Shown here in pieces: positions 6,340 through 60,210 of a DNA stretch of 64,000 nt. This stretch comes from a bacterium (GTDB lineage Bacteria; 4484-113; JAFGCY01): NCBI GenBank assembly GCA_020849855.1, contig JADZFO010000038.1, forward strand, positions 108,010 to 172,009. The letters run 5' to 3'. The translations under genes and the position numbers were made by a program. How positions within the stretch are numbered: position 1 is the stretch's first letter; each line of letters opens with the position of its first letter. A model generated the notes under the pieces. The model was not told the origin of the DNA and made no database searches. It saw only the letters and a list, made by a program, of their open reading frames with translations.

Positions 6340-6480
6340 GGCGATTGCTGATTGCGGATTGCGGATTGCTGATTGCAAAGAGTGCCTCGCAGGGCAGCAG
6401 CACTGTGCTGCTGACTTCCGCGCGGCTCCGGGAAGTCATCAATCATCAATCATCAGTCAGCAATTGCAGCAAGCGAGGTG
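6340..6480. repeat. second copy of the ATTGCTGATTGC-TIR MITE-like element
   Basis: GATTGCTGATTGCGGATTGCGGATTGCTGATTGC ... TCATCAATCATCAATCATCAGTCAGCAATTGC flanks a GC-rich core. Same TIR family as 2668..2878. Confidence 0.5.
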
Positions 6481-6499
6481 CGACATCCTGAGCACACCC

Positions 6500-26439: not shown

Positions 26440-26560
26440 AAACCGACTGCCTGCCCTGCCAGGCGGCTCCACGAAGGCTGCCCCGCACTGCCATGCGGGG
26501 CCACGAAAGCTGCCCGCACTGCCAGGCGGGGCCACATGCCAGAGGGTTATACTCAGCGGG
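26440..26560. repeat. about 3 imperfect tandem ~31-bp repeats (GCCAkGCGGsbCCACGAArGCTGCCCsGCACT) in the upstream region of the large lipoprotein gene
   Basis: ctgccctgccaggcggctccacgaaggctgccccgcact / gccatgcggggccacgaaagctgcccgcact / gccaggcggggccacatgcc, read directly. Confidence 0.5.
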
Positions 26561-26585
26561 CCGGTGCATCCGGCCGGGGAGAGCC

Positions 26586-29500
26586 ATGCTGCTGCTGTCT
26601 GGAAAGCCTGCCTGCCGGCAGTTGAGGTTTACTGGAGTACTGCTGATCACCCTGCTTTGCGCCGCCTGCGGCGGGCGCGGAAGCATCCAGCCCGAGGCCA
26701 TGCTGACAGAAGGCGAAGTGCTGAATAGCCGCAGCGCCAGTGTGCGGATTCTTCCCGAGACCTATCTGGCCGGCGGCAGTGCACGGGCCATCACGCTGAG
26801 CGAGCGCGAGGAAGGCGATGCGGTGCTGCTGGAACTGCGGGCGCAGGATGCGCAGCAGCTCAAGGCCCTGTACCTGCACCTGGAGTATGACCCCGCGCAG
26901 CTTTCGCCGGCCGGCGTGGAGAGCGCCTGGGCCTTTGCCGCGGAGCAGGACAGCCTGCAGCTGCTGCTTGCCGGCGAGCCCGGCGTGCTGGAGTATGGCG
27001 AGCAGTGCATCCGGCCGCAGGTAGCGGACCAGAGCGCGGCGCGCGGAGGCCTCAGCGGCGATGGCCTGCTGGCGACGATCCGCCTGGCCCGGCGGCCCTT
27101 CAGCCCTCTGCAGCGCGAAGCGGCGGCGCCGACGATCGCTGACCGCAGCCAGTCGATACTAAGCCTTGATGTGGACAGCTTCACCCTGAGCTGGGGTTAT
27201 GCCAGCAACGGCGACTACAACCAGAACGGCACGGTGGCTGTAACCGACCTGACGCCCATCGGCGCGCATTTTGGCGAGGATGTGCCGGATGAGGACCAGA
27301 GCACCATTCAGTCGGTGATTGATGGCAATGGCGACGGCAAGATCGGGGTGGCTGACCTGACCGCGATCGGACTCAACTTCCAGATCAGCGTGAACAGCTA
27401 CAACATCTACGCCGCCAACAACATTGATGCAGTGCCAACCAGCAATGCCGGGCCGAACGGCGCAGGGGCCGAACTGCGCGGAACAGTTCCCTTTGACCAG
27501 GTCCAGGGCGACCAGTTCTCAGCCCGGCGCAGCTTCAGCTTCGCGCTGCCAGTCAGCCAGATTGGCTGGTTCTACTGGGTGCGGCCGAACGACGCGGAGG
27601 ATGGCACAGGCGCGGACGGCACGCCCAGCAGTGTGGCCAGCTTCGGCGGCAAGCCCGAGAACCTCGACCCCCTGGCTGTGTTGAGCGCGGATCCTACAAG
27701 CGGCGACATCCCTCTGGAGGTGAGCTTTGACGCCAGCGGCTCCAGCGACCCGGACGGTCTAGCCGCAGACATCAGCGACATCGTGCAGTTCCAGTGGGAC
27801 TTTGACGGCAACGGTTTGATTGACGACGTGAGCTCTGAGCCGACCATCAGCCATACCTACCGGCGCGGCGGGCTTAAGCAGGCCAGGGTGCGGGTCTTCG
27901 ACAGCGGCGCTGCTTCCTCCGAGGCCGCGGTCAGTATCCTGGCCGGCGCGGCTGGCAACGAAGTCCCGGTTGCGGTTCTCAACGCATCGCTCAGCAGCGG
28001 CCAGGTACCGCTGACTGTGTTGTTCAGCACTGCAGGATCGGGCAGCGGTGATGCGGTTTCGAATGTGATCCAGACCGAGTTTGACTTTGAGGGCGATGGC
28101 ATCTTCGATGTTGCATCCGGCTTCCTCAGAAGCGAAATCTCACATACCTTCACTGAGATTGGCACTTTCAACACGACGGTGAGAATCACGGACAGTTTCC
28201 AGCTGCAGGCCACTGCCAACATTGAGATTACGGTAACACCGAATGTGGGCAACCAGGCACCTTTGATTGTGATCCAGCCGGACCCGCTGGTGTTTGACCT
28301 CGTGGACCAAGACTTCCAGGTGGTCGAGATCGACGTCAGCGGATGCAGCGACCCGGATGGAACAGTGCAGCGCATCGAGCTCGATGTCAGGTCAGATGGC
28401 TTTCCAGAAGCGTTCTACCAGAATGACGGAATCCGTCCGCCGGACCGGCTCTTCGTGCAGGTGGTCCCAATGCTCTCGACTATCACGATTTCAGTGGTTG
28501 ACGAGCTTGGCACCCAGACTCAGGAAGTACGGGACTTCAGGGTGTCGAAGAATGGCAACTTCCCGCCCCAGCTGGCATTAAGCCAGAACATTGTCGCCGG
28601 GGACAAACCCCTGCAGGTTGATTTCGACGCTTCCGCCAGCACAGACATTGACGGCAGCATCGTCAACTTCCGCTTTGAATTCAATGACAGCAGCCCGGCG
28701 TTGGATGACCCCGACGGGGTGCTGAGCCACATCTTTGAGAGCGGTGGCGACTTCTTTGTAAGCATCACGGCTGTGGATGACGATGGCCTGGAGGCCTCGG
28801 TGAACCGAGCTATCGAAGTGAACGCACCGAATAACCAGCCGCCCCAGGCGGCCTTCAGCTTGAGCGTCAGCAGCGGGGATGCCCCCCTGACCGTAACTAT
28901 TGACCCTTCCGCCAGCAGCGACCCTGACGGGAGCATCAGCGAGCTGGCCTGGGATTTCTCGGGGGACGGCTTTTTTGCGCCGCTTGATGATCCCACAACG
29001 CTTGCCCCCTTCGAGCAGACCTTCGTGCAGGATGGCAGTCGGCAGATCAGCCTCAGAGTCACCGACAACGATGGCGGGCAGGACACCTTTTCACTTCCGC
29101 TCACAGTAAGCGGCGGCATCCAGCTGGGAGTTGCTGTAGAGGACTTCTCTCAGCAGCGCTCGGATGACGACACGCTTTCTGCAGCGGTTATCCCTGCCGG
29201 GAACTCCGGGCTGGACAAGGCCGCGATAGCCTTCGTGCCAAACAGGAACGTAAACGTTTTCCCCTTCAGCGCTTTCTACACGGAGTGCCAGCCGGCTGAT
29301 CCCCTGCAGTGGTCAACGCCCGCGCCGGTCTTTGAAATGATTGACGAGAACGGTGACGGCATCGCGCAGCTCGGCTTCGTGGCCCGCAACATCAAGCTGC
29401 TGGAGGTAGGCGGCAACCCCGCGCTGGCCTTCGACGGCAATGGCAAGCGCACAGATGAGCTGACCGCCCCCAGTGAAGACGGCGTGTTCTTTGTGCGGGC

Positions 29501-30386
29501 AGAAGACAACAGCGGCTCCCTGTGGGGTGACCCGGTCAAGATCCCGCTGCTGGACGGCGACCTGGAAGGTGAGTTCAACAACACCTTTGTCTTTGAGGAC
29601 ATTGCCGCGGCAAAGATCATCAGCGGCCGGCCGGCAATGGCTTACGCCTTTACGAGGGGCGACTTCCAGAGGCGAGCCGTGCGCTATGTGCGGGCGCTGG
29701 ACAGCCTTGGCAGCCAGTGGCCACCGCCAGTGGAAGTGGATTCAGTACCGGATAACTCGATATTCTTCACTGACCTGAACTTGGAGGTTTTTGACGGGGT
29801 ACCAAGCCTGCTTTTCGCCAGGAACACGAACTCAGGCAGCCCGGCAGTCGAGCAGCCCAGCTATTCGCGGGCTGTTGATTCTGAAGGCTCGGCCTGGAGC
29901 CTGCCTGAGTCTGTTGAGGACGGAGACATTAACTCTGTCAGATCGCGCGGTTCACTGCTGCTGCGCAGTTCCGGCGGCCTGCCGGCTGCCTTTTACAACC
30001 GTCCTGACGGCCAGTCGCAGGGCGAACTTGGCAGCAGCGTGAGCGGCGGCTTTAGCGGCCCGCCAACGGTGGTGCCCTTTGATTCCGGAAGCAGGATGCA
30101 GGTAATCGACCTCTTCGAGAGCGGCGGCGACAGCTATGCGCTGCTCTTCGGCTTCCGCAGCTCGGCGCTCAACGATGGCTTTGTGAGCTCGATCTTCCTG
30201 TCCAGGGCGCTGAGCGAAGATCTGAGCAGCTGGGGCAACCCTGTCGTGGTGGCCAATTCCGGCAGCCGGATGTCTGCGCTTTCAGCCGCGGTGCTGAAGC
30301 TTAACGGGGACCTGGTGATCATCTTCGCGGACTCTGACGCCGGTAATGTGAAGGTGGCCGTCCTGCCGGACTTTGTGGGTTTCTAA
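26586..30386 (+). CDS. large surface lipoprotein: cohesin-like N-terminal domain, dockerin-type double Ca-binding repeat, four PKD-like domains, C-terminal beta-propeller-like repeats
   Basis: Start at MLLLSGKPACRQLRFTGVLLITLLCAACGG (lipobox). LKALYLHLEYDPAQL resembles the cohesin FxxxYDPxxL strand. DYNQNGTVAVTDLTPIGAHFGE...DGNGDGKIGVADLTAIGLNF is a dockerin-like tandem of 12-residue EF-hand loops. PKD-like PLEVSFDASGSSDPDG, PLTVLFSTAGSGSGD, PLQVDFDASASTDIDGSI, PLTVTIDPSASSDPDGSI. ORF track 26493..30386. Confidence 0.65.
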   Translation: MLLLSGKPACRQLRFTGVLLITLLCAACGGRGSIQPEAMLTEGEVLNSRSASVRILPETYLAGGSARAITLSEREEGDAVLLELRAQDAQQLKALYLHLEYDPAQLSPAGVESAWAFAAEQDSLQLLLAGEPGVLEYGEQCIRPQVADQSAARGGLSGDGLLATIRLARRPFSPLQREAAAPTIADRSQSILSLDVDSFTLSWGYASNGDYNQNGTVAVTDLTPIGAHFGEDVPDEDQSTIQSVIDGNGDGKIGVADLTAIGLNFQISVNSYNIYAANNIDAVPTSNAGPNGAGAELRGTVPFDQVQGDQFSARRSFSFALPVSQIGWFYWVRPNDAEDGTGADGTPSSVASFGGKPENLDPLAVLSADPTSGDIPLEVSFDASGSSDPDGLAADISDIVQFQWDFDGNGLIDDVSSEPTISHTYRRGGLKQARVRVFDSGAASSEAAVSILAGAAGNEVPVAVLNASLSSGQVPLTVLFSTAGSGSGDAVSNVIQTEFDFEGDGIFDVASGFLRSEISHTFTEIGTFNTTVRITDSFQLQATANIEITVTPNVGNQAPLIVIQPDPLVFDLVDQDFQVVEIDVSGCSDPDGTVQRIELDVRSDGFPEAFYQNDGIRPPDRLFVQVVPMLSTITISVVDELGTQTQEVRDFRVSKNGNFPPQLALSQNIVAGDKPLQVDFDASASTDIDGSIVNFRFEFNDSSPALDDPDGVLSHIFESGGDFFVSITAVDDDGLEASVNRAIEVNAPNNQPPQAAFSLSVSSGDAPLTVTIDPSASSDPDGSISELAWDFSGDGFFAPLDDPTTLAPFEQTFVQDGSRQISLRVTDNDGGQDTFSLPLTVSGGIQLGVAVEDFSQQRSDDDTLSAAVIPAGNSGLDKAAIAFVPNRNVNVFPFSAFYTECQPADPLQWSTPAPVFEMIDENGDGIAQLGFVARNIKLLEVGGNPALAFDGNGKRTDELTAPSEDGVFFVRAEDNSGSLWGDPVKIPLLDGDLEGEFNNTFVFEDIAAAKIISGRPAMAYAFTRGDFQRRAVRYVRALDSLGSQWPPPVEVDSVPDNSIFFTDLNLEVFDGVPSLLFARNTNSGSPAVEQPSYSRAVDSEGSAWSLPESVEDGDINSVRSRGSLLLRSSGGLPAAFYNRPDGQSQGELGSSVSGGFSGPPTVVPFDSGSRMQVIDLFESGGDSYALLFGFRSSALNDGFVSSIFLSRALSEDLSSWGNPVVVANSGSRMSALSAAVLKLNGDLVIIFADSDAGNVKVAVLPDFVGF

Positions 30387-32805: not shown

Positions 32806-35457
32806 TTATTGCGGCCTGAGCAGCACATTGTTCAATTCTTCGTCATAACCCGAGCTGAGGGGCAGGCCCGTGCCATCGATCAGACTCCAGAGCGAAAGCG
32901 GCTGCATGCACTCACTGACCCAGTCGTCACTCTCAGCCGGCTCCTCGACCAGGGCCGCGCAGTGGATGTTAACGCTGTTGTTGTAGTTATTGAGCCAAAT
33001 GCTGTACTGCACAACCAGCTTGCCGCCTACCAATGCTGTGGCATTCAGGCCAACGTCACCGCCAAGTGGCTTTGCAATCGTATAGTCTGCCCAGTCGCTG
33101 CTGTCGTCTGGCTCGGACTGCGCGGATTCCCAGTGAAACAGGTCAGCGTTGCTCTCGGCAATGAAGTGTGGATGACCATTAATGACATGCAGGGTATCGG
33201 TCACCCATTTCTCGCCTTCGACGGCCTGGGCCACCAGATGCTCCAGCCAATCGTCGCCGCTGTCTGGGTTACTCTGGACCGCGCGGATGTAGTGAAGCTC
33301 TTGCCCGCCGCCTGCAATGAAGGCTGGCCGCCCGGAAATGTCAACTATCGTTGTGTAGTCATCAAAGTAGAACGCCGCCGGCAGGCTCAGGGCGGTACTA
33401 AACTGCCAGTCCGATTGATCCTGCGGCTGAGAGCTGAGCGCGGCGGCGTAGCTAAGCGCGCCGGAGCCTGTCTGGTTATGCTTGAACATGAGTGCAGGAG
33501 TGCCGTTGACTACTGATAGCCGCAGTCCGCTGTAACTCTCACCTGGGGGCAGCGACTGAACTTCATGGCTTGTCCAGTCCTGCGGGCTGTCAGGCTGGGC
33601 TGAGCCGGCCAGCAACAGGTTGATGGAGTCCTGGGTCTGCCAGGCGATCGCGGGCCTGCCCTCATGCTCGGCGAGATAAAGCCAAGAACTGCCCAGGGCC
33701 ACATTGCCCGGATCGTGGGCCAGAGTGGTGATCCAGTCGTCCGGGCTGTCCGGCGTGGGCTCGACCGCCTGCACCAGGTAGATGGAATCGAAGGCTTCGC
33801 TCTTGCCCTCCATGGGGCCAACTGCCGCGAAAGCCGGGCGGCCGCCGACGGAGACCAGACGGGTGAAGGACAGATCATCGAGCATGTCAATCATTGTCCA
33901 ACGCGAGCGGTAACCAAGTTTCAGCGCGGTCGGCACGCTTTCATCAAGCCCTGCAGCCGACACTACATAGTAGTTGTGTGGCAGCAGATCCTGGGTTTGC
34001 AGGTCGGTGTAGTCGGCATCGCTGCTGACTCCAAGGAGAGTGTCATCGCTGCTATCACCACTGTCGATGTAGACTTTGTAGGCCACCGCGCCAGCTACAG
34101 GATTCCAGTTGAGCTCCACGCGGTCGGGGAGACCTTGTGAAACCTGCAGGCCGATTGGCGGGCTCAGCTCGCGGCGGCCGGTGTCCACCGGACTCCAGTG
34201 CGGGCTCGTGTCAGCGCCAAGCACGGCCCTGACCCGATACTCATAGCGGGTACGGTGCAGACTTTCCTTGCCCGGTGGAGAATTGAAGAAGTGGCTGAAT
34301 TTAGGCGAGGCATCGACGGTCTCGGCAAGCGGCACCCATAGCACCGGCTCACCACCATCGGCGTTTCGATACTCAATCTGATAGGCCTCGGCCTCTGGCA
34401 CAGCGGTCCAGACCAGGTCAATTCGGTCACCCAGCGTCGCAGGTTGCCATGGGTCGCTGTTGTCGTACTCGTCATAGGTGGCCGCAAGGAAGTCGACATC
34501 CCCGAGTGTTCGCAGACCGGCGACGCCAAATCCTGCCTCGCCGGTCAGCCCAACCCGCTGCAGGCGTAGACGGTAATAGACATTAACACCATAGGGCAGC
34601 AGGTTGGCCGCGCCGACTGCTTCCGAGTGCACATCGCTGTAGCTGTTCACGCCGGGCGGCAGGGTGGCCAGAGGCTCAAAGATGTAGGGCGGCTGCTGGG
34701 AGACGCTGCGCTCCAGTACGACGGCGTCGTACTGCAGGCCAGGATAACTGGCCGCCGGGTCATCCCAGCTCAGCTCAATGCGCCCGGGGTAGTCTCCGTA
34801 GCTCGCTGTCAGCCCCTGCGGGACCGGAAGCGCCGCATCCAGTTCCAGGCTGAGCCGCGAGACGCTGGCCTGCTGGGCGCCGTCGATCAGCACAATGCAG
34901 AACAGCGAGCCGTCAGGGCTGAGGGGCTCAAGCCCGGCAGCCAGGCTGAGCGTGTTTTCCGGCAGAGGCAGCGCCAGCCGGTACCAGCGCCAGCTCTGGC
35001 TGGCATAATCGCTGACAGCCAGCCAGGCCCTTTGCGGAAGTGGCTGGGCCAGCTCCAGCTTCAGGCTGAAGGTGGCGTCCTGCGGGCTGAGACCGCTGAA
35101 CTCGAACAAGGCCCAGCCAGGCTGGCCAGGGCTGGAGCTGAGCAGGGCAGTCTTACTGAAGGGGTTCACCATGGTGCTGGGGGCGGCTACGCTGAACTGC
35201 GATCCCGGCAGCACTATGGACCCCATGGCAAGCGCGGTGTGGGGCAGGCCGGAGCCGCCAGCTGGCAGCGCCGGAAGGCCGGACTGCTGCGGCAGGGCTG
35301 GAAGCTCAAGCCGCGGCGCGGCAGGGTCGACAAGTGGGGCCGCGGAATCAGTCGATGTTGTGACCGGCGCAGTCAAGGCGCCCGCGCCGCAGGATGACAG
35401 CATTAACGCGCAGAAGAGCAAAGCCAGACGCTGTGCGCCGTATCCCCACCTGACCAT
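32806..35457 (-). CDS. large surface lipoprotein (signal/lipobox, unknown conserved N-terminal module, FN3-like middle, beta-propeller-like C-terminal repeats)
   Basis: 883 aa; MVRWGYGAQRLALLFCALMLSSCGAGA lipobox. N-terminal module motif AWLAVSDYASQSWRWYRL is shared with the 43555..44997 and 58303..60210 proteins. Repeated P.DS.DDW / SxxDW blades in the C-terminal half. Gene is bracketed by the direct repeats. Confidence 0.55.
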   Translation of the reverse strand: MVRWGYGAQRLALLFCALMLSSCGAGALTAPVTTSTDSAAPLVDPAAPRLELPALPQQSGLPALPAGGSGLPHTALAMGSIVLPGSQFSVAAPSTMVNPFSKTALLSSSPGQPGWALFEFSGLSPQDATFSLKLELAQPLPQRAWLAVSDYASQSWRWYRLALPLPENTLSLAAGLEPLSPDGSLFCIVLIDGAQQASVSRLSLELDAALPVPQGLTASYGDYPGRIELSWDDPAASYPGLQYDAVVLERSVSQQPPYIFEPLATLPPGVNSYSDVHSEAVGAANLLPYGVNVYYRLRLQRVGLTGEAGFGVAGLRTLGDVDFLAATYDEYDNSDPWQPATLGDRIDLVWTAVPEAEAYQIEYRNADGGEPVLWVPLAETVDASPKFSHFFNSPPGKESLHRTRYEYRVRAVLGADTSPHWSPVDTGRRELSPPIGLQVSQGLPDRVELNWNPVAGAVAYKVYIDSGDSSDDTLLGVSSDADYTDLQTQDLLPHNYYVVSAAGLDESVPTALKLGYRSRWTMIDMLDDLSFTRLVSVGGRPAFAAVGPMEGKSEAFDSIYLVQAVEPTPDSPDDWITTLAHDPGNVALGSSWLYLAEHEGRPAIAWQTQDSINLLLAGSAQPDSPQDWTSHEVQSLPPGESYSGLRLSVVNGTPALMFKHNQTGSGALSYAAALSSQPQDQSDWQFSTALSLPAAFYFDDYTTIVDISGRPAFIAGGGQELHYIRAVQSNPDSGDDWLEHLVAQAVEGEKWVTDTLHVINGHPHFIAESNADLFHWESAQSEPDDSSDWADYTIAKPLGGDVGLNATALVGGKLVVQYSIWLNNYNNSVNIHCAALVEEPAESDDWVSECMQPLSLWSLIDGTGLPLSSGYDEELNNVLLRPQ

Positions 35458-54061: not shown

Positions 54062-57000
54062 TTAGCCCAGGTCCTCTTCGCTGACGTCGATCTCCGGGTT
54101 GTCGTGGATCCTCGTGCGGCCGTCGTCGGACAGGCGGGCGCGCGGCGGGACGAGCATCTTCAGCAGCTTGGTATCCAGCGCGCCGCGGCGCTTCACCGCC
54201 AGCATGCGGTCGCGGAAGGCCGTCCCATGCTGCGGGTTCAGCTCCAGGGCGTGGCTGCAGTAGAGGATTGCCTCGTCATAGTTGCGCACCGCCAGCAGCT
54301 CGCGGCCCAGCAGGGCATAGAGGTCGGCGTCGCGGCAGCCCTCGGCCACCGCCTTGCGCAGCAGGGGCAACACTTCGCGCTGGCGCTTGAGCTGGCGCAG
54401 GATGTCCACAATCTCGATGTAGCTCGCCGCCAGCTTGGAGTTCAGCTCCAGGGCGCGGTCAAAGCAGCTCTGGCTGTAACTGAACAGGCCCTTACGCTTG
54501 TAGGCCACGCCAAGCTGGTGGTGCAGGATGGCGAAGTTCGGGTTGATCTGCAGGGCCTGGTTGTACTGCTCGATGGCCTCGTCAATGCGGCTGTCGTTCA
54601 GGAAGGTGTCGCCCTGGGCCAGGAAGTTGCGGGCCAGCAGGCCCTTCTTGGAGTGGCTGACGCCCTCCTCAGCGAATACCGCCGTGTTACCGACACCCAG
54701 CAGCACGCAGGAGATGGTGCCCTCGAGGCGGCGGCGGATGGCGTCGCCCTTGATCAGCTCCATGGCCTGGGCCGGCTCGCTGGTACTGGTGATCAGCTCC
54801 TTGATCTCGGAGATCGACAGCGCGCTGGAAAGGTTGCGGCTGAGCAGCAGCAGCTGGTCGCCATCCTTCAGGCGGCGCTTCAGACGGTGCACGCGGGCCA
54901 GCTCGCCAAAGCCCAGACGGTCGTGGATCGTGTTTGACAAGGCTTTCTCACCGTCGCCGATGACGACCTCGTCGTTGATGGTCCACTTGTCGTCCGAATG
55001 GTCCAGCAGGTGTCCCTGGGCCAGGATGGTGAAATCAGCCTCGCCGCAGCTGTGCAGATAAAGCGTGTTCTCCTGCACCATGCCGACGATGGCGGACAGG
55101 CCATAGTGCCCGGTCTTGCCAAGGCCAAAGGCCTCGCGGTAGAGGCGCTGGTTCAGCAGGTCAAGCACCTGGTCCAGGAACTTCTCGGGGTCGGTCTTCT
55201 GCATCTTGGCCAGCTCAGGGCTGACCGCGCCGGCGCTGAAAAGCAGCTCACGCATGCTCTTGAGGGCGCTGGTGGCCGCGCGGCTGGAATCGCCCAGTTC
55301 ATTGCCGTGGCCGACCAGCAGGGCAATCGCGCCGCGGGCACGGTTGTTTACCGCAGGCAGGCGGATGGCCAGGGTTTCCTCACCCTTCTCGCGGGTGTTC
55401 TTGCCCACCATCGACAGCTCGGCGAAATCAAAGCGCAGGTTTGGCACCTGGACCTGCTGCTTCTTGTCGTAGCCCAGCAGGTGGCTGAGTTCCTCGCCCA
55501 GCTCGCCGGCCGCCGCATAGCGCCCGGTGGGGTTCTTCTCCAGCATCCGGATCAGCATGTCCTTGATCTCGGGATGCAGCAGCGAGGCCTCAACACGGGT
55601 GGCCGCGTTCAGGTGCAGGTGTTCGTCGCGGATCTCCTGCTCCACCTTGAAGCAGAAGGGCGGGTGGCCCACCATCATCTCGAAGAGCAGGATGCCCAGC
55701 TGGTAGATATCGCTGCGCTGGTCCTGGCTCTGCTGGCGGATGAACTCCGGGGTGTAATACTCGGCGCCGATGAAGTTCAGGTTGCCATTCTGCAGGAAGG
55801 CATCCGCCACCAGCGGGTCGGCGATCTTGACCGAGCGCAGGTCCGTGGTCAGGAAGATATTGCTCGGGCGCAGGGCGCCGTGATAAGGCAGGTGGTGGAA
55901 GTAGAGGCCCTCAAGGCCCTTGCAGATCTGGAAAACGATGCGGCCGGCATCAGGCATCGGCAGGGTGCCGCGCTTGATCAGCAGCTGCTCGAGGCTCTGC
56001 AGGCCGGACTCCATGGCGATATAGCCGTTCTCGAAGTGGATGCCGACGTCATAGACCTGCAGGACATTCTCGTGATGGATGTTCGGCAAGGCCTTGAAGC
56101 GGGTCTGGAACAGACCCTGCAGCTCGGGATGGCTGCGCAGGTCGACCAGCTTGACCACGCAGCGCTGCTGGCCGTCCTCGGAGCGGGTGTCGATCGCGGA
56201 ATAGATGCGGCTGACGCGGCCCGAGCCGATCTCGGAGACCAGCTTGAAGCGGCCGTTGATCAGGGTATCGAGGATGAAGGTCTGGAAGCGCAGGCCGGAC
56301 TGTTCTTCGCCGCAGAGCTTCTGGACATCATCCAGGGCCTGCTTGAAACCGCCGTAGCGCTGCTCCAGGACCGGAGAAAGCAATTTGTATAGCAGCTCCT
56401 GCACCGGCAGGGGCAGCTTGGTTTCGTCACTGAGCACCTGGCGCAGGCGGTCGGGACGCAGGCGCTCGGCCGGCGGGAAGATGGCGCTGGCCGGGGTGGC
56501 CGTGGCCAGCTCCAGCGCGATCAGGCCGAGGCCGTAAAGGTCGCACTGCTGCGCGGAGAAGAGGCCGCTGGGCGCGCCGTCGAAACCCTCGGGCAATGCG
56601 CCCGCCTCGCCGGCGGCGCCGTTATCCTGGCCCGCCTCAAAGCCGTGGCCGCTCTCCAGGGCCGGCAGTCCGGCCAGCAGCTCGCGTGGCGGCAGATAGG
56701 CCAGCAGGTTGGCGGCTTCAGAAGTCAGCGCCAGATCGTCATGGATCGTGACCGTCGGATAGCCAAAGAAGCCCAGCTTGACCTGGCCCTGTTCCAGGCT
56801 GATGCGGATGTTGTCCGGGTGAACACTCTGGTGCGAAAGCACTTCCTTGCTCTCGGCAAAGAGCAGCGCGCGCAGCACACCGCGCATCAGCACCAGCAGC
56901 TCAGCCGGCGGCAGGGCCTTGAGGTTCTCGAACTGGCTCAGGGGCCGGCCGAAATCGGGATAGACAAGGTAGGGACGCCCTTCCTTGCCGCCGAAGGCCA

Positions 57001-57352
57001 GCGGCCGCAGCACGTTCTCGTGCTCTTTCTGGGCCAGGATGATGTTGACGCGCTTGAGCTCCTCGAGCTGCTCGACGGAAATCAGCGGATCGTTGATCAG
57101 CAGACAGACCACTGGCTGCTGGTCCTCAAGGCTGAAACCTGAGTAGCGGTCGCCCAGAACGCCCTGCGATTGCAGGTTATTAATGTGAAATCTGTCTACC
57201 TGGAAGGGTATCTGCATGCCTCGCCCCAATCGTTCCTGATTATATCGGGCTGGCAGCGTCTGCCCTGCACTCTCCATGCCCCCATTGATTCCCCCGAACT
57301 CGATGGTGTCATGCGCACCGTTGACTGATGTCTCCGGCAGTCCTAGACCCAT
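54062..57352 (-). CDS. multidomain signalling protein: two degenerate Ser/Thr-kinase-like (pseudokinase) domains, PP2C/SpoIIE-like phosphatase domain, C-terminal TPR repeats
   Basis: 1096 aa. Kinase-like 2: IGSGRVSRIY (Gly loop), CVVKL (VAIK), HHENVL, YHGALRPSNIF in place of HRDLKPxN (catalytic Asp absent), YYTPEF (APE). Kinase-like 1 similarly degenerate (SHQSVHPDNI). LLVGHGNELGDSSRAATSAL and following region are PP2C-like. C-terminal TPRs (AILHHQLGVAYKRKGLFSYSQSCFDRALELN.., ADLYALLGRELLAVRNYDEAILYCSHALELNP). Confidence 0.65.
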   Translation of the reverse strand: MGLGLPETSVNGAHDTIEFGGINGGMESAGQTLPARYNQERLGRGMQIPFQVDRFHINNLQSQGVLGDRYSGFSLEDQQPVVCLLINDPLISVEQLEELKRVNIILAQKEHENVLRPLAFGGKEGRPYLVYPDFGRPLSQFENLKALPPAELLVLMRGVLRALLFAESKEVLSHQSVHPDNIRISLEQGQVKLGFFGYPTVTIHDDLALTSEAANLLAYLPPRELLAGLPALESGHGFEAGQDNGAAGEAGALPEGFDGAPSGLFSAQQCDLYGLGLIALELATATPASAIFPPAERLRPDRLRQVLSDETKLPLPVQELLYKLLSPVLEQRYGGFKQALDDVQKLCGEEQSGLRFQTFILDTLINGRFKLVSEIGSGRVSRIYSAIDTRSEDGQQRCVVKLVDLRSHPELQGLFQTRFKALPNIHHENVLQVYDVGIHFENGYIAMESGLQSLEQLLIKRGTLPMPDAGRIVFQICKGLEGLYFHHLPYHGALRPSNIFLTTDLRSVKIADPLVADAFLQNGNLNFIGAEYYTPEFIRQQSQDQRSDIYQLGILLFEMMVGHPPFCFKVEQEIRDEHLHLNAATRVEASLLHPEIKDMLIRMLEKNPTGRYAAAGELGEELSHLLGYDKKQQVQVPNLRFDFAELSMVGKNTREKGEETLAIRLPAVNNRARGAIALLVGHGNELGDSSRAATSALKSMRELLFSAGAVSPELAKMQKTDPEKFLDQVLDLLNQRLYREAFGLGKTGHYGLSAIVGMVQENTLYLHSCGEADFTILAQGHLLDHSDDKWTINDEVVIGDGEKALSNTIHDRLGFGELARVHRLKRRLKDGDQLLLLSRNLSSALSISEIKELITSTSEPAQAMELIKGDAIRRRLEGTISCVLLGVGNTAVFAEEGVSHSKKGLLARNFLAQGDTFLNDSRIDEAIEQYNQALQINPNFAILHHQLGVAYKRKGLFSYSQSCFDRALELNSKLAASYIEIVDILRQLKRQREVLPLLRKAVAEGCRDADLYALLGRELLAVRNYDEAILYCSHALELNPQHGTAFRDRMLAVKRRGALDTKLLKMLVPPRARLSDDGRTRIHDNPEIDVSEEDLG

Positions 57353-58179: not shown

Positions 58180-58302
58180 TCTAGGCTCTGCCTTCGCTCG
58201 TCAGATCCTGGCCCGGACGCTCCATCAAAAGCTGCATAAAGGTGAAACTATGAACGCTGGCCGCTGCTCTTAGCCCGGTTTGCCCAAGCCATGGAGGTTG
58301 AA

Positions 58303-60210
58303 ATGCAAACGGCAAGAAGCAATTGGAAGCGCGTCCCCGGCACATTGTGTGTGCTGCTGATCCTCTCCGCACTGGGCTGCGGCGGCGGCCATGAGGGCGC
58401 CTTCGGCAACACCCTGGAGAACAGCACCGCCCCGGCAAGCCTGCCGGGCAGCACGCTTAGTCCCGCGCCGCCGGCTTTGGCTGCGCCCGCTGCCCGGGTC
58501 AGTTCCGGCATCTTCGAGCCGGGCGAGCTGTACCAGAGCAGCGCCTCCGGCGCAAGCTGGAGCGGCAGCACTGTGAGCCTTGACGCCGGCGGACTGGACC
58601 TGGCCTACAGCGTGGTGGGCCTCAATGCAGACGCCGGACTGCTGGAGCAGGTCAGCCTGCAGGGCAGCGGCAGCGCGGTCTGGCTGGGCGTCAGCAACTA
58701 TGCCAGCTCTGCCTGGGACTGGGTCGCCGGCCCGCTGGACGCTGAAACTGAAACGACCCTGCATGTACTGGACAGCAGCAGCCCGGACTGCTATTCGCCG
58801 GACGGCAGCATCTATCTGGCGCTGGTGACGACCGCGCAGGCCAGCCTGAGGCTGGAATGCAGCTTCAGCGACGCTCAGCTCAGCGTGGCGCTGAGCGGGC
58901 CGGACATCGGCAATGAGTGCCTGCCCCTGCTGGGCGTCAACGCCGGCCCCTACCCTTCTGGCGAGCCAGGCAACCCGGACCTGATTGAGCAGTACCACGC
59001 CGTCGGGGTGAACTATGTCCGCACCCACGACTTCTATGGCCCGCTGGACCTGGCACAGATGTATCCCGACCGCGATGCGAACCCGACACTGGAGTCCAGC
59101 TTCGACTTCACAGAGAGCGATCTGCGCTGGCAGGCGATCCTGGACAGCGGCGCGCGGCCTTATCTGCGCCTGGGCGACAGCTTTAACAACCCGACACCTC
59201 CGGAGAACCCGATGCAGCGGGCGCGGATGGCTGAGGCCTGCGTGCAGATCATCAAGCACTACATGGAGGGGCAGTGGGGCGGCTTCAACACACCCATCGA
59301 CTACGTTGAGATCTGGAACGAGCCGGACGGCCAGTTCTGGCCCGGCCACAGCCAGGCTGAGTTCTTCCAGTTCTTCGCCGCCGTAGAGAACGCGATCCAC
59401 GCCCAGTGGCCGGTGCTCAAGGTTGGCGGTCCGGGCTTCACCCCGGCCGGCTATCTGACCCCTTCAGGCCAGGCTTATGTCATTGACTTCCTGGACTATA
59501 TGTCGGTCTATGCCACGCGCCTCGACTTCATCTCCTGGCACATGTACTCCAACAACCCGCAGGATTTCGCTGAGGCCGCAGCCTGGTACCGCGTGCAGCT
59601 TGACGACAACGGCTTCGCCGCCGCCGAGAACCACATCACGGAGTGGAACACCTCCATCAGCAATGACGGAACGCAGACGGATGAAGAGATCGAGCTGCGC
59701 AGCGGGCCGACGGGCGCGGCCCTGCTGAGCGCGAGCTGGATCGAGCTGCAGCAGAGCGATGTGGCGGTGTCCTGCTTCTATCGCGGGCCGGACCCGAACA
59801 TTGAAGTCCCCAGCTTCTATGGGATGTGGTACGCCGATGGAACGCCGAAGAAGATCGGCGAGGCCTTTGCCCTCTGGCGCGAGTTCTGCCACAGCGGCAG
59901 CTTCCAGAGCCTTGAGCTGAGCGGAGAGGGCGCGGAGCAGCTCTATGCCCTCGTCGGCCGCGACAGCGAAAGTGACTATCTGCTGCTGCTGGCGAACACC
60001 TCAGACAACGCGGTGACCTACAGCCTGGACTTCCAGGACATCATCAGCGGCGAGCTCAGCCCGGTGCAGGAACTGTACCGCTGCACCCTTCGCGAGGTCA
60101 GCGCCGATGACGACGGCCGCGCGATACATGACCTGCCGCTGAGCACCGTCTCCATCCCGGCACACGCTGTGCAGCTGCTGAAGGTGGACTGGTACGACAG
60201 CGACGACTAA
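58303..60210 (+). CDS. clan GH-A glycoside hydrolase lipoprotein (GH39/GH5-like) with shared N-terminal module
   Basis: Start at ATG 58303 (SD GGAGG 5 nt upstream; MQTARSNWKRVPGTLCVLLILSALGCGGG lipobox). ORF track 58291. N-module motif VWLGVSNYASSAWDWVAGP. Catalytic core with acid/base EIWNEPD (NEP) and nucleophile ITEWN, separated by ~110 aa as in (beta/alpha)8 GH-A enzymes. Confidence 0.65.
   Translation: MQTARSNWKRVPGTLCVLLILSALGCGGGHEGAFGNTLENSTAPASLPGSTLSPAPPALAAPAARVSSGIFEPGELYQSSASGASWSGSTVSLDAGGLDLAYSVVGLNADAGLLEQVSLQGSGSAVWLGVSNYASSAWDWVAGPLDAETETTLHVLDSSSPDCYSPDGSIYLALVTTAQASLRLECSFSDAQLSVALSGPDIGNECLPLLGVNAGPYPSGEPGNPDLIEQYHAVGVNYVRTHDFYGPLDLAQMYPDRDANPTLESSFDFTESDLRWQAILDSGARPYLRLGDSFNNPTPPENPMQRARMAEACVQIIKHYMEGQWGGFNTPIDYVEIWNEPDGQFWPGHSQAEFFQFFAAVENAIHAQWPVLKVGGPGFTPAGYLTPSGQAYVIDFLDYMSVYATRLDFISWHMYSNNPQDFAEAAAWYRVQLDDNGFAAAENHITEWNTSISNDGTQTDEEIELRSGPTGAALLSASWIELQQSDVAVSCFYRGPDPNIEVPSFYGMWYADGTPKKIGEAFALWREFCHSGSFQSLELSGEGAEQLYALVGRDSESDYLLLLANTSDNAVTYSLDFQDIISGELSPVQELYRCTLREVSADDDGRAIHDLPLSTVSIPAHAVQLLKVDWYDSDD

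What the first reader, a model, noticed from the sequence alone, without database searches (positions are those of the whole stretch)
26586..30386. Giant lipoprotein combining cohesin-like and dockerin-like modules with four PKD domains and a propeller-like C-terminal half
Cohesin (FxxYDPxxL strand) and dockerin (two DxNxDGxVxxxD loops) in the same non-cellulosomal protein suggests self-assembly or docking to other surface proteins. In this window, three other big lipoproteins and a GH39/GH5-like hydrolase occur, so this might be the scaffold of a cell-surface polysaccharide-degrading or adhesion assembly.
Basis: partly seen in the sequence, partly recalled or inferred. Interest (0 to 1): 0.5.

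Follow-up and report, generated by a model that had tools for sequence, protein, structure and literature searches.

The report
Surface lipoprotein with cohesin–dockerin head
This gene encodes a large, probably non-enzymatic cell-envelope lipoprotein of an uncultivated bacterium that carries distant versions of the cellulosome "plug and socket" modules (dockerin and cohesin) side by side next to its lipid anchor; it belongs to a large family of such proteins that has only generic annotations and is not a cellulosome scaffold.

Summary
The sequence features are real. ORF 26586-30386 (+) encodes 1266 aa. In order it has a signal peptide with a conserved Cys, a divergent cohesin-fold module, a dockerin-type double Ca2+ loop, an unassigned beta-sandwich, five PKD repeats (Pfam finds four) and a six-blade Asp-box (sialidase-like) propeller.

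- **Dockerin:** this protein scores just below the Pfam cut-off (22.1 against 22.9 bits). Relatives pass it, and the family profile's best PDB hit is a true dockerin (E 2e-7).
- **Family:** at least 187 protein clusters carry the cohesin-like module, and 139 of 140 full-length ones have the dockerin-like module directly after it. At least 301 metagenome loci carry the dockerin-plus-sandwich unit, many without the cohesin-like part and some as tandem paralogues.
- **No cellulosome:** none of 61 relatives scanned has a catalytic domain. No other ORF in the window, including the GH39-like one, has either module.

The polysaccharide-degrading-scaffold reading is therefore not supported. My best guess, which is inferred, is a binding protein whose anchor-proximal cohesin/dockerin pair links family members on the cell surface.

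The parts
26586..26669 (+). Signal peptide with probable lipobox; Cys28 is the likely lipidated residue
   Evidence: Read from the sequence. GGAG lies upstream of ATG 26586. A Cys at this position is at least 90% conserved in 61 relatives, and relatives show L-x-[AGS]-C N-termini. No dedicated predictor was run.
26715..27200 (+). Divergent cohesin-fold beta-sandwich (aa 44-205). The core is about aa 50-170. The conserved terminal hairpin ...LSLDVDSFTLSWGY is kept even in relatives that lack the core
27207..27383 (+). Dockerin-type duplicated Ca2+-binding loop plus short helix (aa 208-266)
   Evidence: Pfam Dockerin_1 scores 22.1 bits against a cut-off of 22.9 on the module. 29 of 40 relatives match, best E 7.8e-8, and P0012 scores 32.5 bits. 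The family profile's best PDB hit is dockerin 4fl4 (E 2.3e-7), followed by the CelD dockerin 1clc and by 2y3n_B. Asp occupies loop position 12 in both loops.
27384..27641 (+). Conserved beta-sandwich of unassigned family (aa 267-352; motifs SYNIY and WFYWVRPND...GTPS), always following the dockerin-like module
27660..29102 (+). Five tandem PKD-type Ig-like repeats (aa 359-451, 458-549, 556-646 degenerate, 658-743, 750-839)
   Evidence: Pfam PKD_4 scores E 5e-35 with 4 stretches, and PKD scores E 8e-23. A self-profile detects five repeats with i-E values from 1e-9 to 5e-32.
29163..30383 (+). Asp-box (BNR/sialidase-like) six-blade beta-propeller-type repeat domain (aa 860-1266), probably non-catalytic
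   Evidence: Blade-profile matches fall at aa 880-914 (very weak), 938-986, 1011-1052, 1066-1110, 1129-1144 (weak) and 1196-1222. Relatives have 6 regular blades plus a partial seventh, with a period of about 50 aa. All 8 PDB hits of family profile A4 are sialidases NanB/NanC, best E 0.0014. A4 against this region gives hhalign probability 99%, E 2e-18. Pfam gives no hit on the target itself.
26447..26535 (.). 31-nt tandem repeat (2.8 copies) in the 5' leader or intergenic region. It contains the alternative upstream ATG 26493
   Evidence: Tandem Repeats Finder gives score 120 and 84% matches. The sequence was read. Its function is unknown.

Best explanation
Shown. The gene encodes a 1266-aa secreted protein, probably lipid-anchored. 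From the anchor outward it consists of a divergent cohesin-fold module, a dockerin-type double Ca2+ loop, a conserved beta-sandwich, a stalk of five PKD Ig-like repeats, and a distal six-blade Asp-box propeller of the sialidase-like superfamily. It belongs to a large paralogous family from MAGs deposited only as 'bacterium' (one as Planctomycetales). In that family the dockerin-like module and the sandwich are always present, the cohesin-like module is present in a large subset, and the C-terminal payloads are non-catalytic Ig-like repeats and propellers.

Inferred. The protein is a surface binding protein or adhesin, with the propeller as its ligand-binding (possibly glycan-binding) head. The anchor-proximal cohesin-like and dockerin-like modules mediate Ca2+-dependent association between family members on the same cell. 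In this model the dockerin of one lipoprotein, including paralogues that have only the dockerin, plugs into the cohesin-like module of another, giving dimers, chains or a lateral coat. It is not an enzyme-collecting cellulosome.

Rough probabilities: architecture about 0.85; homology of the two modules to cohesin and dockerin about 0.8; intermolecular docking between family members about 0.4. The confidence given for this entry (0.45) is for the statement as a whole, including the inferred mechanism.
For: Architecture.

Family. 187 clusters at E<=1e-3 share the cohesin-like module, almost all directly after a lipoprotein-type signal. 139 of 140 full-length members have the dockerin-like module immediately after it.

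Independent search. A search that started from the dockerin-plus-sandwich unit found at least 301 metagenome loci. In the best 80 loci, 33 ORFs have cohesin-like plus dockerin-like modules and 55 have the dockerin-like module only.

Co-occurrence. Both classes occur as adjacent genes: L028 has coh+doc, doc-only, coh+doc in tandem, and L020, L057 and L067 are also mixed. The MAG orthologue locus L004 has three tandem dockerin-only paralogues. A docking network needs exactly this kind of co-occurrence.

Other points.
- No catalytic domains were found in 61 relatives.
- Non-cellulosomal cohesin-dockerin pairs have been shown to bind (PMC9012536 citing Haimovitz 2008; PMC9705933).
- Both dockerin repeats keep the same LTPIGxNFG segment, as expected for a conserved partner surface.
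Against: No binding was or could be tested.

- The near-obligatory 1:1 adjacency, with a fixed 4-residue spacing between the WxY strand and the first Ca2+ loop, looks more like one integrated structural unit than like freely shuffled docking modules.
- Pfam thresholds are not reached by this protein for either module.
- The first AF2 model gave no confident dockerin structure or inter-module packing.
- MI-APC covariation on 172 sequences showed fewer inter-module pairs than expected by chance (28 of the top 100 against 46% of all pairs), with only isolated high pairs such as Y96-T223.
- Surface exposure, as opposed to a periplasmic location, is assumed and not shown.
Confidence: 0.45

Rival explanations
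1. Cis structural pedestal. The cohesin-like module, the dockerin-like Ca2+ loops and the following sandwich form one rigid, Ca2+-stabilised base, analogous to the X-module-dockerin dyad of type II dockerins. This base simply holds the PKD stalk and the propeller away from the membrane. There is no intermolecular docking.
For: 139 of 140 full-length proteins with the cohesin-like module have the dockerin-like module directly after it. The junction WxYxxxGDY has invariant length and there is no Pro/Thr-rich linker. Some proteins repeat the whole cassette as a unit (P0012, P0017). A few high inter-module covariation pairs exist, such as Y96-T223 and G138-T223.
Against: The dockerin-like module plus sandwich occurs very often without any cohesin-like module: 55 of 97 ORFs, and the three L004 paralogues. 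It therefore does not need that module to fold. Inter-module covariation is overall depleted. The internal two-fold symmetry of the dockerin-like module is what partner-binding dockerins show.
Confidence: 0.3
2. The protein is the scaffold of a cell-surface polysaccharide-degrading (cellulosome-like) assembly that recruits the GH39-like hydrolase and the other large lipoproteins of the region.
For: Cohesin-like and dockerin-like modules are present. A GH39-like lipoprotein lies about 28 kb away.
Against: Only one cohesin-like module is present and there is no CBM. No other ORF in the window has a dockerin- or cohesin-like module, by pattern or by family HMM. No catalytic domain occurs among 61 cassette-bearing relatives. 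The flanking genes are housekeeping genes, and the same holds at relative locus L007.
Confidence: 0.05
3. The C-terminal propeller is an active sialidase or exo-glycosidase. The protein would then be an anchored enzyme, like the C. perfringens GH33 and GH84 enzymes that carry cohesin or dockerin modules.
For: All PDB hits of the family profile are GH33 sialidases. Relative P0005 has a sub-threshold BNR_2 hit. A cohesin module is found on a C. perfringens GH33 enzyme, 2vo8.
Against: The similarity is confined to the Asp-box and blade pattern, with E 0.0014 at best. The blades in relatives are near-identical consensus repeats, which is typical of binding or structural propellers. No FRIP/RIP motif is seen in aa 860-1266 (read). 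Pfam finds no GH33/BNR domain in the target.
Confidence: 0.07
4. Chance resemblance. The N-terminal module is a generic beta-sandwich and the loops are an ordinary EF-hand pair, neither related to cohesin or dockerin.
Against: Three independent lines all single out cohesin: the fold ranking, the profile search of PDB sequences and the per-member Pfam scan. The single-sequence search also reached a protein with 12 canonical Pfam Cohesin repeats (P0133, E 1e-6). Relatives pass the Dockerin_1 threshold. NCBI names a relative 'dockerin type I repeat-containing protein'. The loops have Asp rather than Glu at position 12 and no preceding E-helix, which is the dockerin F-hand pattern (own knowledge of the family).
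Confidence: 0.1

Closest known systems
Non-cellulosomal cohesin/dockerin proteins (Peer et al. 2009, cited in PMC9012536), for example Archaeoglobus fulgidus AF2375 (cohesin structure 2xdh), which from my own recollection carries a cohesin and a dockerin in one polypeptide
   Different: Here the two modules are directly fused at the N-terminus of a lipoprotein, followed by an obligatory sandwich module. They are far more divergent, below Pfam thresholds. They form a family of hundreds of paralogues with PKD and propeller payloads.
Clostridium perfringens toxin-complex glycoside hydrolases (GH33 NanJ cohesin 2vo8; GH84 NagJ cohesin-Fn3 2w1n and 2o4e)
   Different: Those are secreted, catalytically active Gram-positive enzymes in which cohesin and dockerin sit on different proteins. 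Here the propeller is a regular repeat with no catalytic signature, and both modules are in the same chain next to a lipid anchor.
Cellulosomal scaffoldins and type II X-module-dockerin dyads (C. thermocellum CipA, Sca proteins)
   Different: There are no repeated cohesins, no CBM, no SLH or sortase anchoring, no dockerin-bearing enzymes and no Pro/Thr linkers. Anchoring is by N-terminal lipidation.
Dockerin/cohesin surface proteins of ANME archaea (PMC9012536)
   Same: Numerous non-cellulolytic envelope proteins carry dockerin or cohesin. They are proposed to organise the cell surface, and their function is still unknown.
   Different: The ANME proteins match the standard domain models and include proteins with up to five cohesins, combined with S-layer or solute-binding domains. 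The present family is bacterial, lipoprotein-anchored and has a fixed N-terminal triad.

Membership tests
Cohesin (Pfam PF00963) | Score at or above the Pfam gathering threshold (24.1 bits) | tested here: not met
   There is no hit on the full protein. The isolated module scores 12 bits, E 0.25. The best relative scores 22.1 bits. 22 of 46 relatives give sub-threshold hits, and no other family recurs.
Cohesin (Pfam PF00963) | Beta-sandwich fold superposable on solved cohesins | tested here: met
Cohesin (Pfam PF00963) | Binds a dockerin | not testable with these tools
Dockerin type I (Pfam PF00404) | Score at or above the Pfam gathering threshold (22.9 bits) | tested here: not met
   The full protein scores 17.5 bits and the module alone 22.1 bits, so it misses narrowly. 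Relatives pass: P0012 scores 32.5 bits and the best E among 61 relatives is 2.3e-11.
Dockerin type I (Pfam PF00404) | Two duplicated segments, each a 12-residue Ca2+ loop (D/N at positions 1, 3 and 5, Asp at 12) followed by a helix, with no preceding E-helix | tested here: met
   The loops are DYNQNGTVAVTD-LTPIGAHFG and DGNGDGKIGVAD-LTAIGLNFQ, with starts 36 residues apart. The first loop follows a beta-strand (WGY). The helices are predicted to be short, with Pro and Gly in them. The profile aligns over both repeats with dockerin 4fl4.
Dockerin type I (Pfam PF00404) | Ca2+-dependent binding to a cohesin | not testable with these tools
   No experiment or multimer model was possible.
PKD domain (PF18911 / PF00801) | Pfam threshold and tandem Ig-like repeats | tested here: met
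   PF18911 scores 119.8 bits with 4 stretches, and PF00801 scores 80.8 bits. A self-profile finds five repeats.
BNR/Asp-box six-blade propeller (sialidase-like; PF13088 BNR_2) | Pfam threshold | tested here: not met
   The target's C-terminal half gives no hit. Relative P0005 scores 25 bits against a cut-off of 31.4.
BNR/Asp-box six-blade propeller (sialidase-like; PF13088 BNR_2) | Six repeated four-strand blades with an Asp-box-like D-x-x-G-x-x-W turn | tested here: met
   Relatives show 6 blades plus a partial seventh with a period of about 50 aa. The target has four significant and two weak blade matches. The turns are ALDSLGSQW, AVDSEGSAW, EDNSGSLW and SEDLSSW; the spacing is one residue longer than the canonical SxDxGxTW. 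The family profile hits only sialidases in the PDB.
GH33 sialidase (catalytic) | FRIP motif, Arg triad, Tyr/Glu nucleophile pair | tested here: inconclusive
   No FRIP/RIP motif was seen on reading aa 860-1266.
Cellulosomal scaffoldin | Several cohesins, usually a CBM, and partner enzymes bearing matching dockerins in the genome | tested here: not met
   There is one cohesin-like module and no CBM. No partner ORF occurs in the window. No enzymes occur among 61 relatives. The rest of the genome was not available.
Bacterial lipoprotein (SPase II substrate) | Signal peptide ending in a lipobox [LVI][ASTVI][GAS]C | tested here: inconclusive
   The sequence is LLITLLCAAC28GG. Positions -1 and -2 fit, -3 is Cys, which is not canonical, and -4 is Leu. 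The Cys is conserved in at least 90% of 61 relatives, most of which have canonical boxes. No LipoP or SignalP was available.

The most novel reading that the evidence does not exclude
The fixed N-terminal triad (cohesin-like, dockerin-like, sandwich), together with the abundant dockerin-only paralogues, is an undescribed non-cellulosomal self-assembly system. Lipoproteins of an uncultivated bacterial lineage would plug into one another through a very divergent cohesin-dockerin pair next to the membrane, building a Ca2+-dependent surface coat or lattice that displays propeller heads. That would be a structural use of the cohesin-dockerin pair rather than an enzyme-collecting one.
Probability: 0.25. 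Interest if true: 0.6.

Novelty: new variant of a known kind. Interest (0 to 1): 0.38.

Why it matters
Cohesin-dockerin pairs are among the strongest known protein-protein interactions and are widely used as orthogonal connectors in synthetic biology.

A large family in which both partners sit side by side at the lipid-anchored end of non-enzymatic surface proteins would extend the known biology of these modules beyond cellulosomes. The family has at least 187 clusters with the cohesin-like module and at least 301 metagenome loci with the dockerin unit. The cohesin-like part is invisible to Pfam at threshold, and relatives are deposited as 'hypothetical' or 'PKD domain-containing' proteins.

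Three things would follow:
- new, very divergent and probably orthogonal binding pairs;
- a handle on how an uncultivated bacterial lineage builds its cell surface;
- a concrete set of natural test cases for who binds whom, in the tandem coh+doc and doc-only gene arrays.

If the modules prove to be purely structural, the finding is an ordinary multidomain surface protein.

Tried and rejected

2. The search for homologous proteins found only 3 hits for the N-terminal region and 5 for the C-terminal region, and none with alignment A2. The exhaustive HMMER search found 187. The word index evidently misses this family, and the third search was wasted.

3. Exact look-ups of the target, P0001 and P0013 found no contig.

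4. Single-sequence searches of PDB sequences returned only calmodulins for the N-terminal region and nothing meaningful for the C-terminal half.

5. Pfam on the C-terminal halves of the target, the 883-aa neighbour and the L004 paralogues found nothing.

6. Profile searches for the third module (A7) found nothing credible.

7. I ran MI-APC covariation between the cohesin-like and dockerin-like modules on 172 sequences (Neff 156). Intra-dockerin pairs at equivalent positions of the two repeats dominate. Inter-module pairs are under-represented, with a few isolated high pairs. The result is confounded by phylogeny and does not discriminate between cis and trans binding.

8. The hit P0036 (34 stretches) proved to be a eukaryotic coiled-coil false positive.

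9. Literature searches found no description of this cassette. Peer et al. 2009 is not held in the library.

10. The organism could not be placed. Relatives are deposited as '[bacterium]', and one as 'Planctomycetales bacterium'.


Full report
**What is at the coordinates**

The window holds an ORF from 26493 to 30386 on the + strand.
- GGAG lies 4 nt upstream.
- The closest orthologue, P0009 (71% identity in the N-terminal module, 1273 aa), begins at the equivalent position.
- The upstream ATG 26493 lies inside a 31-nt tandem repeat at 26447-26535.

The N-terminus reads MLLLSGKPACRQLRFTGVLLITLLCAAC28GG, which is a signal peptide with a probable lipobox. The -3 residue is not canonical. A Cys at this position is at least 90% conserved among 61 relatives, and most of those have textbook boxes. 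No dedicated predictor was available, so I call it a "probable lipoprotein".

**Plain domain scan**

Pfam finds PKD domains (PF18911, E 5e-35, four stretches). Dockerin_1 scores 17.5 bits, below its 22.9-bit cut-off, and Cohesin gives no hit. NCBIfam adds nothing.

**The family**

The word-indexed protein search found only three relatives of the N-terminal region. An exhaustive HMMER search with aa 41-205 against 1.84 billion cluster representatives found 187 proteins at E<=1e-3 and 49 at E<=1e-10. Nearly all of them have a lipoprotein-type signal, then this module at about residues 40-190, then a pair of Ca2+-loop motifs at about 190-235.

With HMMs built locally, 139 of 140 full-length proteins that carry the module also carry the dockerin-like unit directly after it. 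Two proteins, P0012 and P0017, carry the whole cassette twice. The one exception, P0133, is a Bacteroidota-type T9SS protein with 12 canonical Pfam Cohesin domains (E 7e-116). That exception gives a transitive sequence link to true cohesins. Another multi-stretch hit, P0036, is a coiled-coil false positive.

**Is the first module a cohesin?**

Three independent lines point the same way.
1. **Profile against PDB sequences.** A 46-sequence profile (A2) gave 13 hits at E<=10. Ten are cohesins (3l8q, 2vn5, 1g1k, 5g5d, 2y3n, 1tyj and others), best E 0.008.
2. **Per-member Pfam scan.** Scanned one by one, 22 of 46 members give sub-threshold Pfam Cohesin hits (best E 1.5e-4), and no other family recurs.

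**Is the second module a dockerin?**

The two loops are DYNQNGTVAVTD and DGNGDGKIGVAD. They have D/N at positions 1, 3 and 5 and Asp at position 12. Each is followed by LT(P/A)IGxxF, and their starts are 36 residues apart. The first loop follows a beta-strand rather than a helix. This is the dockerin F-hand pattern (family knowledge).

A 40-sequence profile (A3) has the C. thermocellum dockerin 4fl4 as its best PDB hit (E 2.3e-7, one alignment over both repeats), followed by the CelD dockerin (1clc, 4cj0) and 2y3n_B. Calmodulins score close behind, as expected for EF-hand relatives.

Pfam Dockerin_1 matches 29 of 40 members (best E 7.8e-8). The target's module alone scores 22.1 bits. Relatives clear the threshold (P0012 scores 32.5 bits; best E 2.3e-11). 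NCBI names one relative "dockerin type I repeat-containing protein".

**The rest of the protein**

- **aa 267-352:** a conserved sandwich (SYNIY...WFYWVRPND...GTPS) that always follows the dockerin-like unit. Neither Pfam nor PDB sequences match it. Only a low-confidence model suggests an Fn3/Ig fold.
- **aa 359-839:** five PKD repeats, the third degenerate.
- **aa 860-1266:** repeats of a roughly 40-residue blade core of the form φφφ.G.PA.φφ....φ.YvRA.D..G..W..P. Better-preserved relatives have six regular copies plus a partial seventh, with a period of about 50 aa, and some proteins have two such sets. A seven-sequence profile of these propellers (A4) aligns with the target's C-terminal half at hhalign probability 99%, E 2e-18. 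In the PDB it hits only GH33 sialidases (NanC and NanB, eight of eight hits, best E 0.0014), through the Asp-box turns.

The target itself gets no Pfam hit in this half, and I saw no FRIP motif. The near-identical consensus blades argue for a binding or structural propeller rather than an enzyme.

**Context**

The flanking genes are housekeeping: metG upstream, and frr, uppS and cdsA downstream. The 883-aa lipoprotein at 32806-35457 (-) shares the blade repeats weakly but has neither N-terminal module. The GH39-like ORF 58291-60210 is real and also has a lipobox. Family HMMs and the loop pattern find cohesin- or dockerin-like modules in no other ORF of the window.

A Pfam scan of 61 cassette-bearing relatives shows only PKD, Big_9, cadherin-like and CarboxypepD_reg-type Ig-like domains and similar, with no catalytic domain. 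A relative's locus, L007, is likewise embedded among housekeeping genes and Lpt genes, which suggests a diderm envelope.

**The dockerin unit is the wider element**

The orthologue in MAG AC1.30 (L004, 33% identity over aa 103-1261) is one of three tandem paralogues. All three have a short helical N-terminus in place of the cohesin-like core, yet keep the ...LxWGY hairpin, the dockerin-like unit, the sandwich, five PKD repeats and the propeller.

A metagenome scan that started from the dockerin-plus-sandwich alignment (A6) found at least 301 loci. In the best 80 loci, 33 ORFs have cohesin-like plus dockerin-like modules, 55 have the dockerin-like unit only, and 40 of the 97 ORFs carry three or more blade repeats. 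Fifteen loci hold two or three such genes. These include mixed tandem arrays, such as L028 (coh+doc, doc-only, coh+doc with gaps of about 30 nt) and L020, L057 and L067.

**How it probably works**

The architecture is shown: lipid anchor, cohesin-like module, dockerin-like module, sandwich, Ig-like stalk and propeller head. The function is inferred.

I favour a surface binding protein whose anchor-proximal modules link family members in a Ca2+-dependent way, with the dockerin of one protein plugging into the cohesin-like module of another (about 0.4). Four observations fit this.
- Genomes hold both coh+doc and doc-only paralogues side by side.
- The dockerin unit is internally symmetric and highly conserved.
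- Non-cellulosomal cohesin-dockerin pairs do bind (PMC9012536, PMC9705933).
- Placing both modules next to the membrane favours lateral contacts on the same cell.

The main rival (about 0.3) is a purely structural, cis-packed pedestal like an X-module-dockerin dyad. The near-obligatory 1:1 adjacency and the fixed 4-residue junction support it. A covariation test did not separate the two models.

The cellulosome-scaffold reading (about 0.05) lacks every supporting feature I could test. An active-sialidase reading (about 0.07) and pure chance resemblance (about 0.1) remain possible.

**Comparison with what is known, and novelty**

Non-cellulosomal cohesin- and dockerin-like modules are known to be widespread (Peer et al. 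2009, as cited in PMC9012536), for example in A. fulgidus and in the C. perfringens glycosidases. The kind is therefore known.

The new element is the variant. It is a very divergent cohesin-like module, below Pfam detection, fused directly to a dockerin-type unit and an unassigned sandwich at the lipidated N-terminus. It occurs in hundreds of non-enzymatic PKD and propeller proteins of bacteria known only from MAGs, alongside dockerin-only paralogues. I found no paper describing it. Database names are "hypothetical protein", "PKD domain-containing protein" or "dockerin type I repeat-containing protein".

My verdict is a new variant of a known kind, of moderate interest.

Noticed in passing
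window 26447-26535: A 31-nt tandem repeat (2.8 copies, 84% matches; consensus CTGCCCGCACTGCCAGGCGGCGCCACGAAAG) lies in the leader just upstream of the start codon. It contains the alternative ATG 26493 of the longest ORF. Its function is unknown.
   Followed up: partly
window 32806-35457 (-): An 883-aa probable lipoprotein (lipobox LSSC) has an Fn3 hit and the same Asp-box blade repeats as the target's C-terminal half (family blade HMM, E 4e-9), but no cohesin- or dockerin-like module. It is a distant paralogue of the payload only.
   Followed up: partly
window 58291-60210 (+): A GH39-like protein (PF01229, E 2e-13) has a lipobox (LSALGCGG). It has no dockerin-like module, so nothing links it to the target.
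   Followed up: partly
window 54062-57352 (-): A 1096-aa Ser/Thr protein kinase has an N-terminal extension of about 370 aa and C-terminal TPR repeats.
   Followed up: no
window 6359-8314 (+): This NuoH-like ORF (PF00146) is listed at 651 aa. The Pfam match starts only at residue 268, so either there is a long N-terminal extension or the true start lies further downstream. It is part of a nuo/Mrp-type cluster at 6-16 kb.
   Followed up: no
L004 6361-16683 (MAG AC1.30, contig JAWLAZ010000001.1): Three tandem paralogues of 1089-1126 aa each have a helical N-terminus, the dockerin-like unit, five PKD repeats and the same propeller. All three lack the cohesin-like core.
   Followed up: partly
L028 1343-7533 (metagenome contig Ga0315287_10001020): An operon-like array of three family genes in the order coh+doc, doc-only, coh+doc, each with 6-7 blade repeats and gaps of about 30 nt. 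It is a natural test set for who binds whom.
   Followed up: partly
P0012 (aa 39-244 and 816-1025) and P0017 (aa 33-240 and 422-590): Some relatives carry the whole cohesin-like plus dockerin-like cassette twice in one polypeptide, so the cassette duplicates as a unit.
   Followed up: partly
alignment of 172 cassettes, target numbering aa 210-257: The strongest covarying pairs are equivalent positions of the two dockerin repeats (212-248, 219-255, 214-248 and others, an offset of 36). This fits either contact between the two loops or concerted evolution of the repeats.
   Followed up: partly
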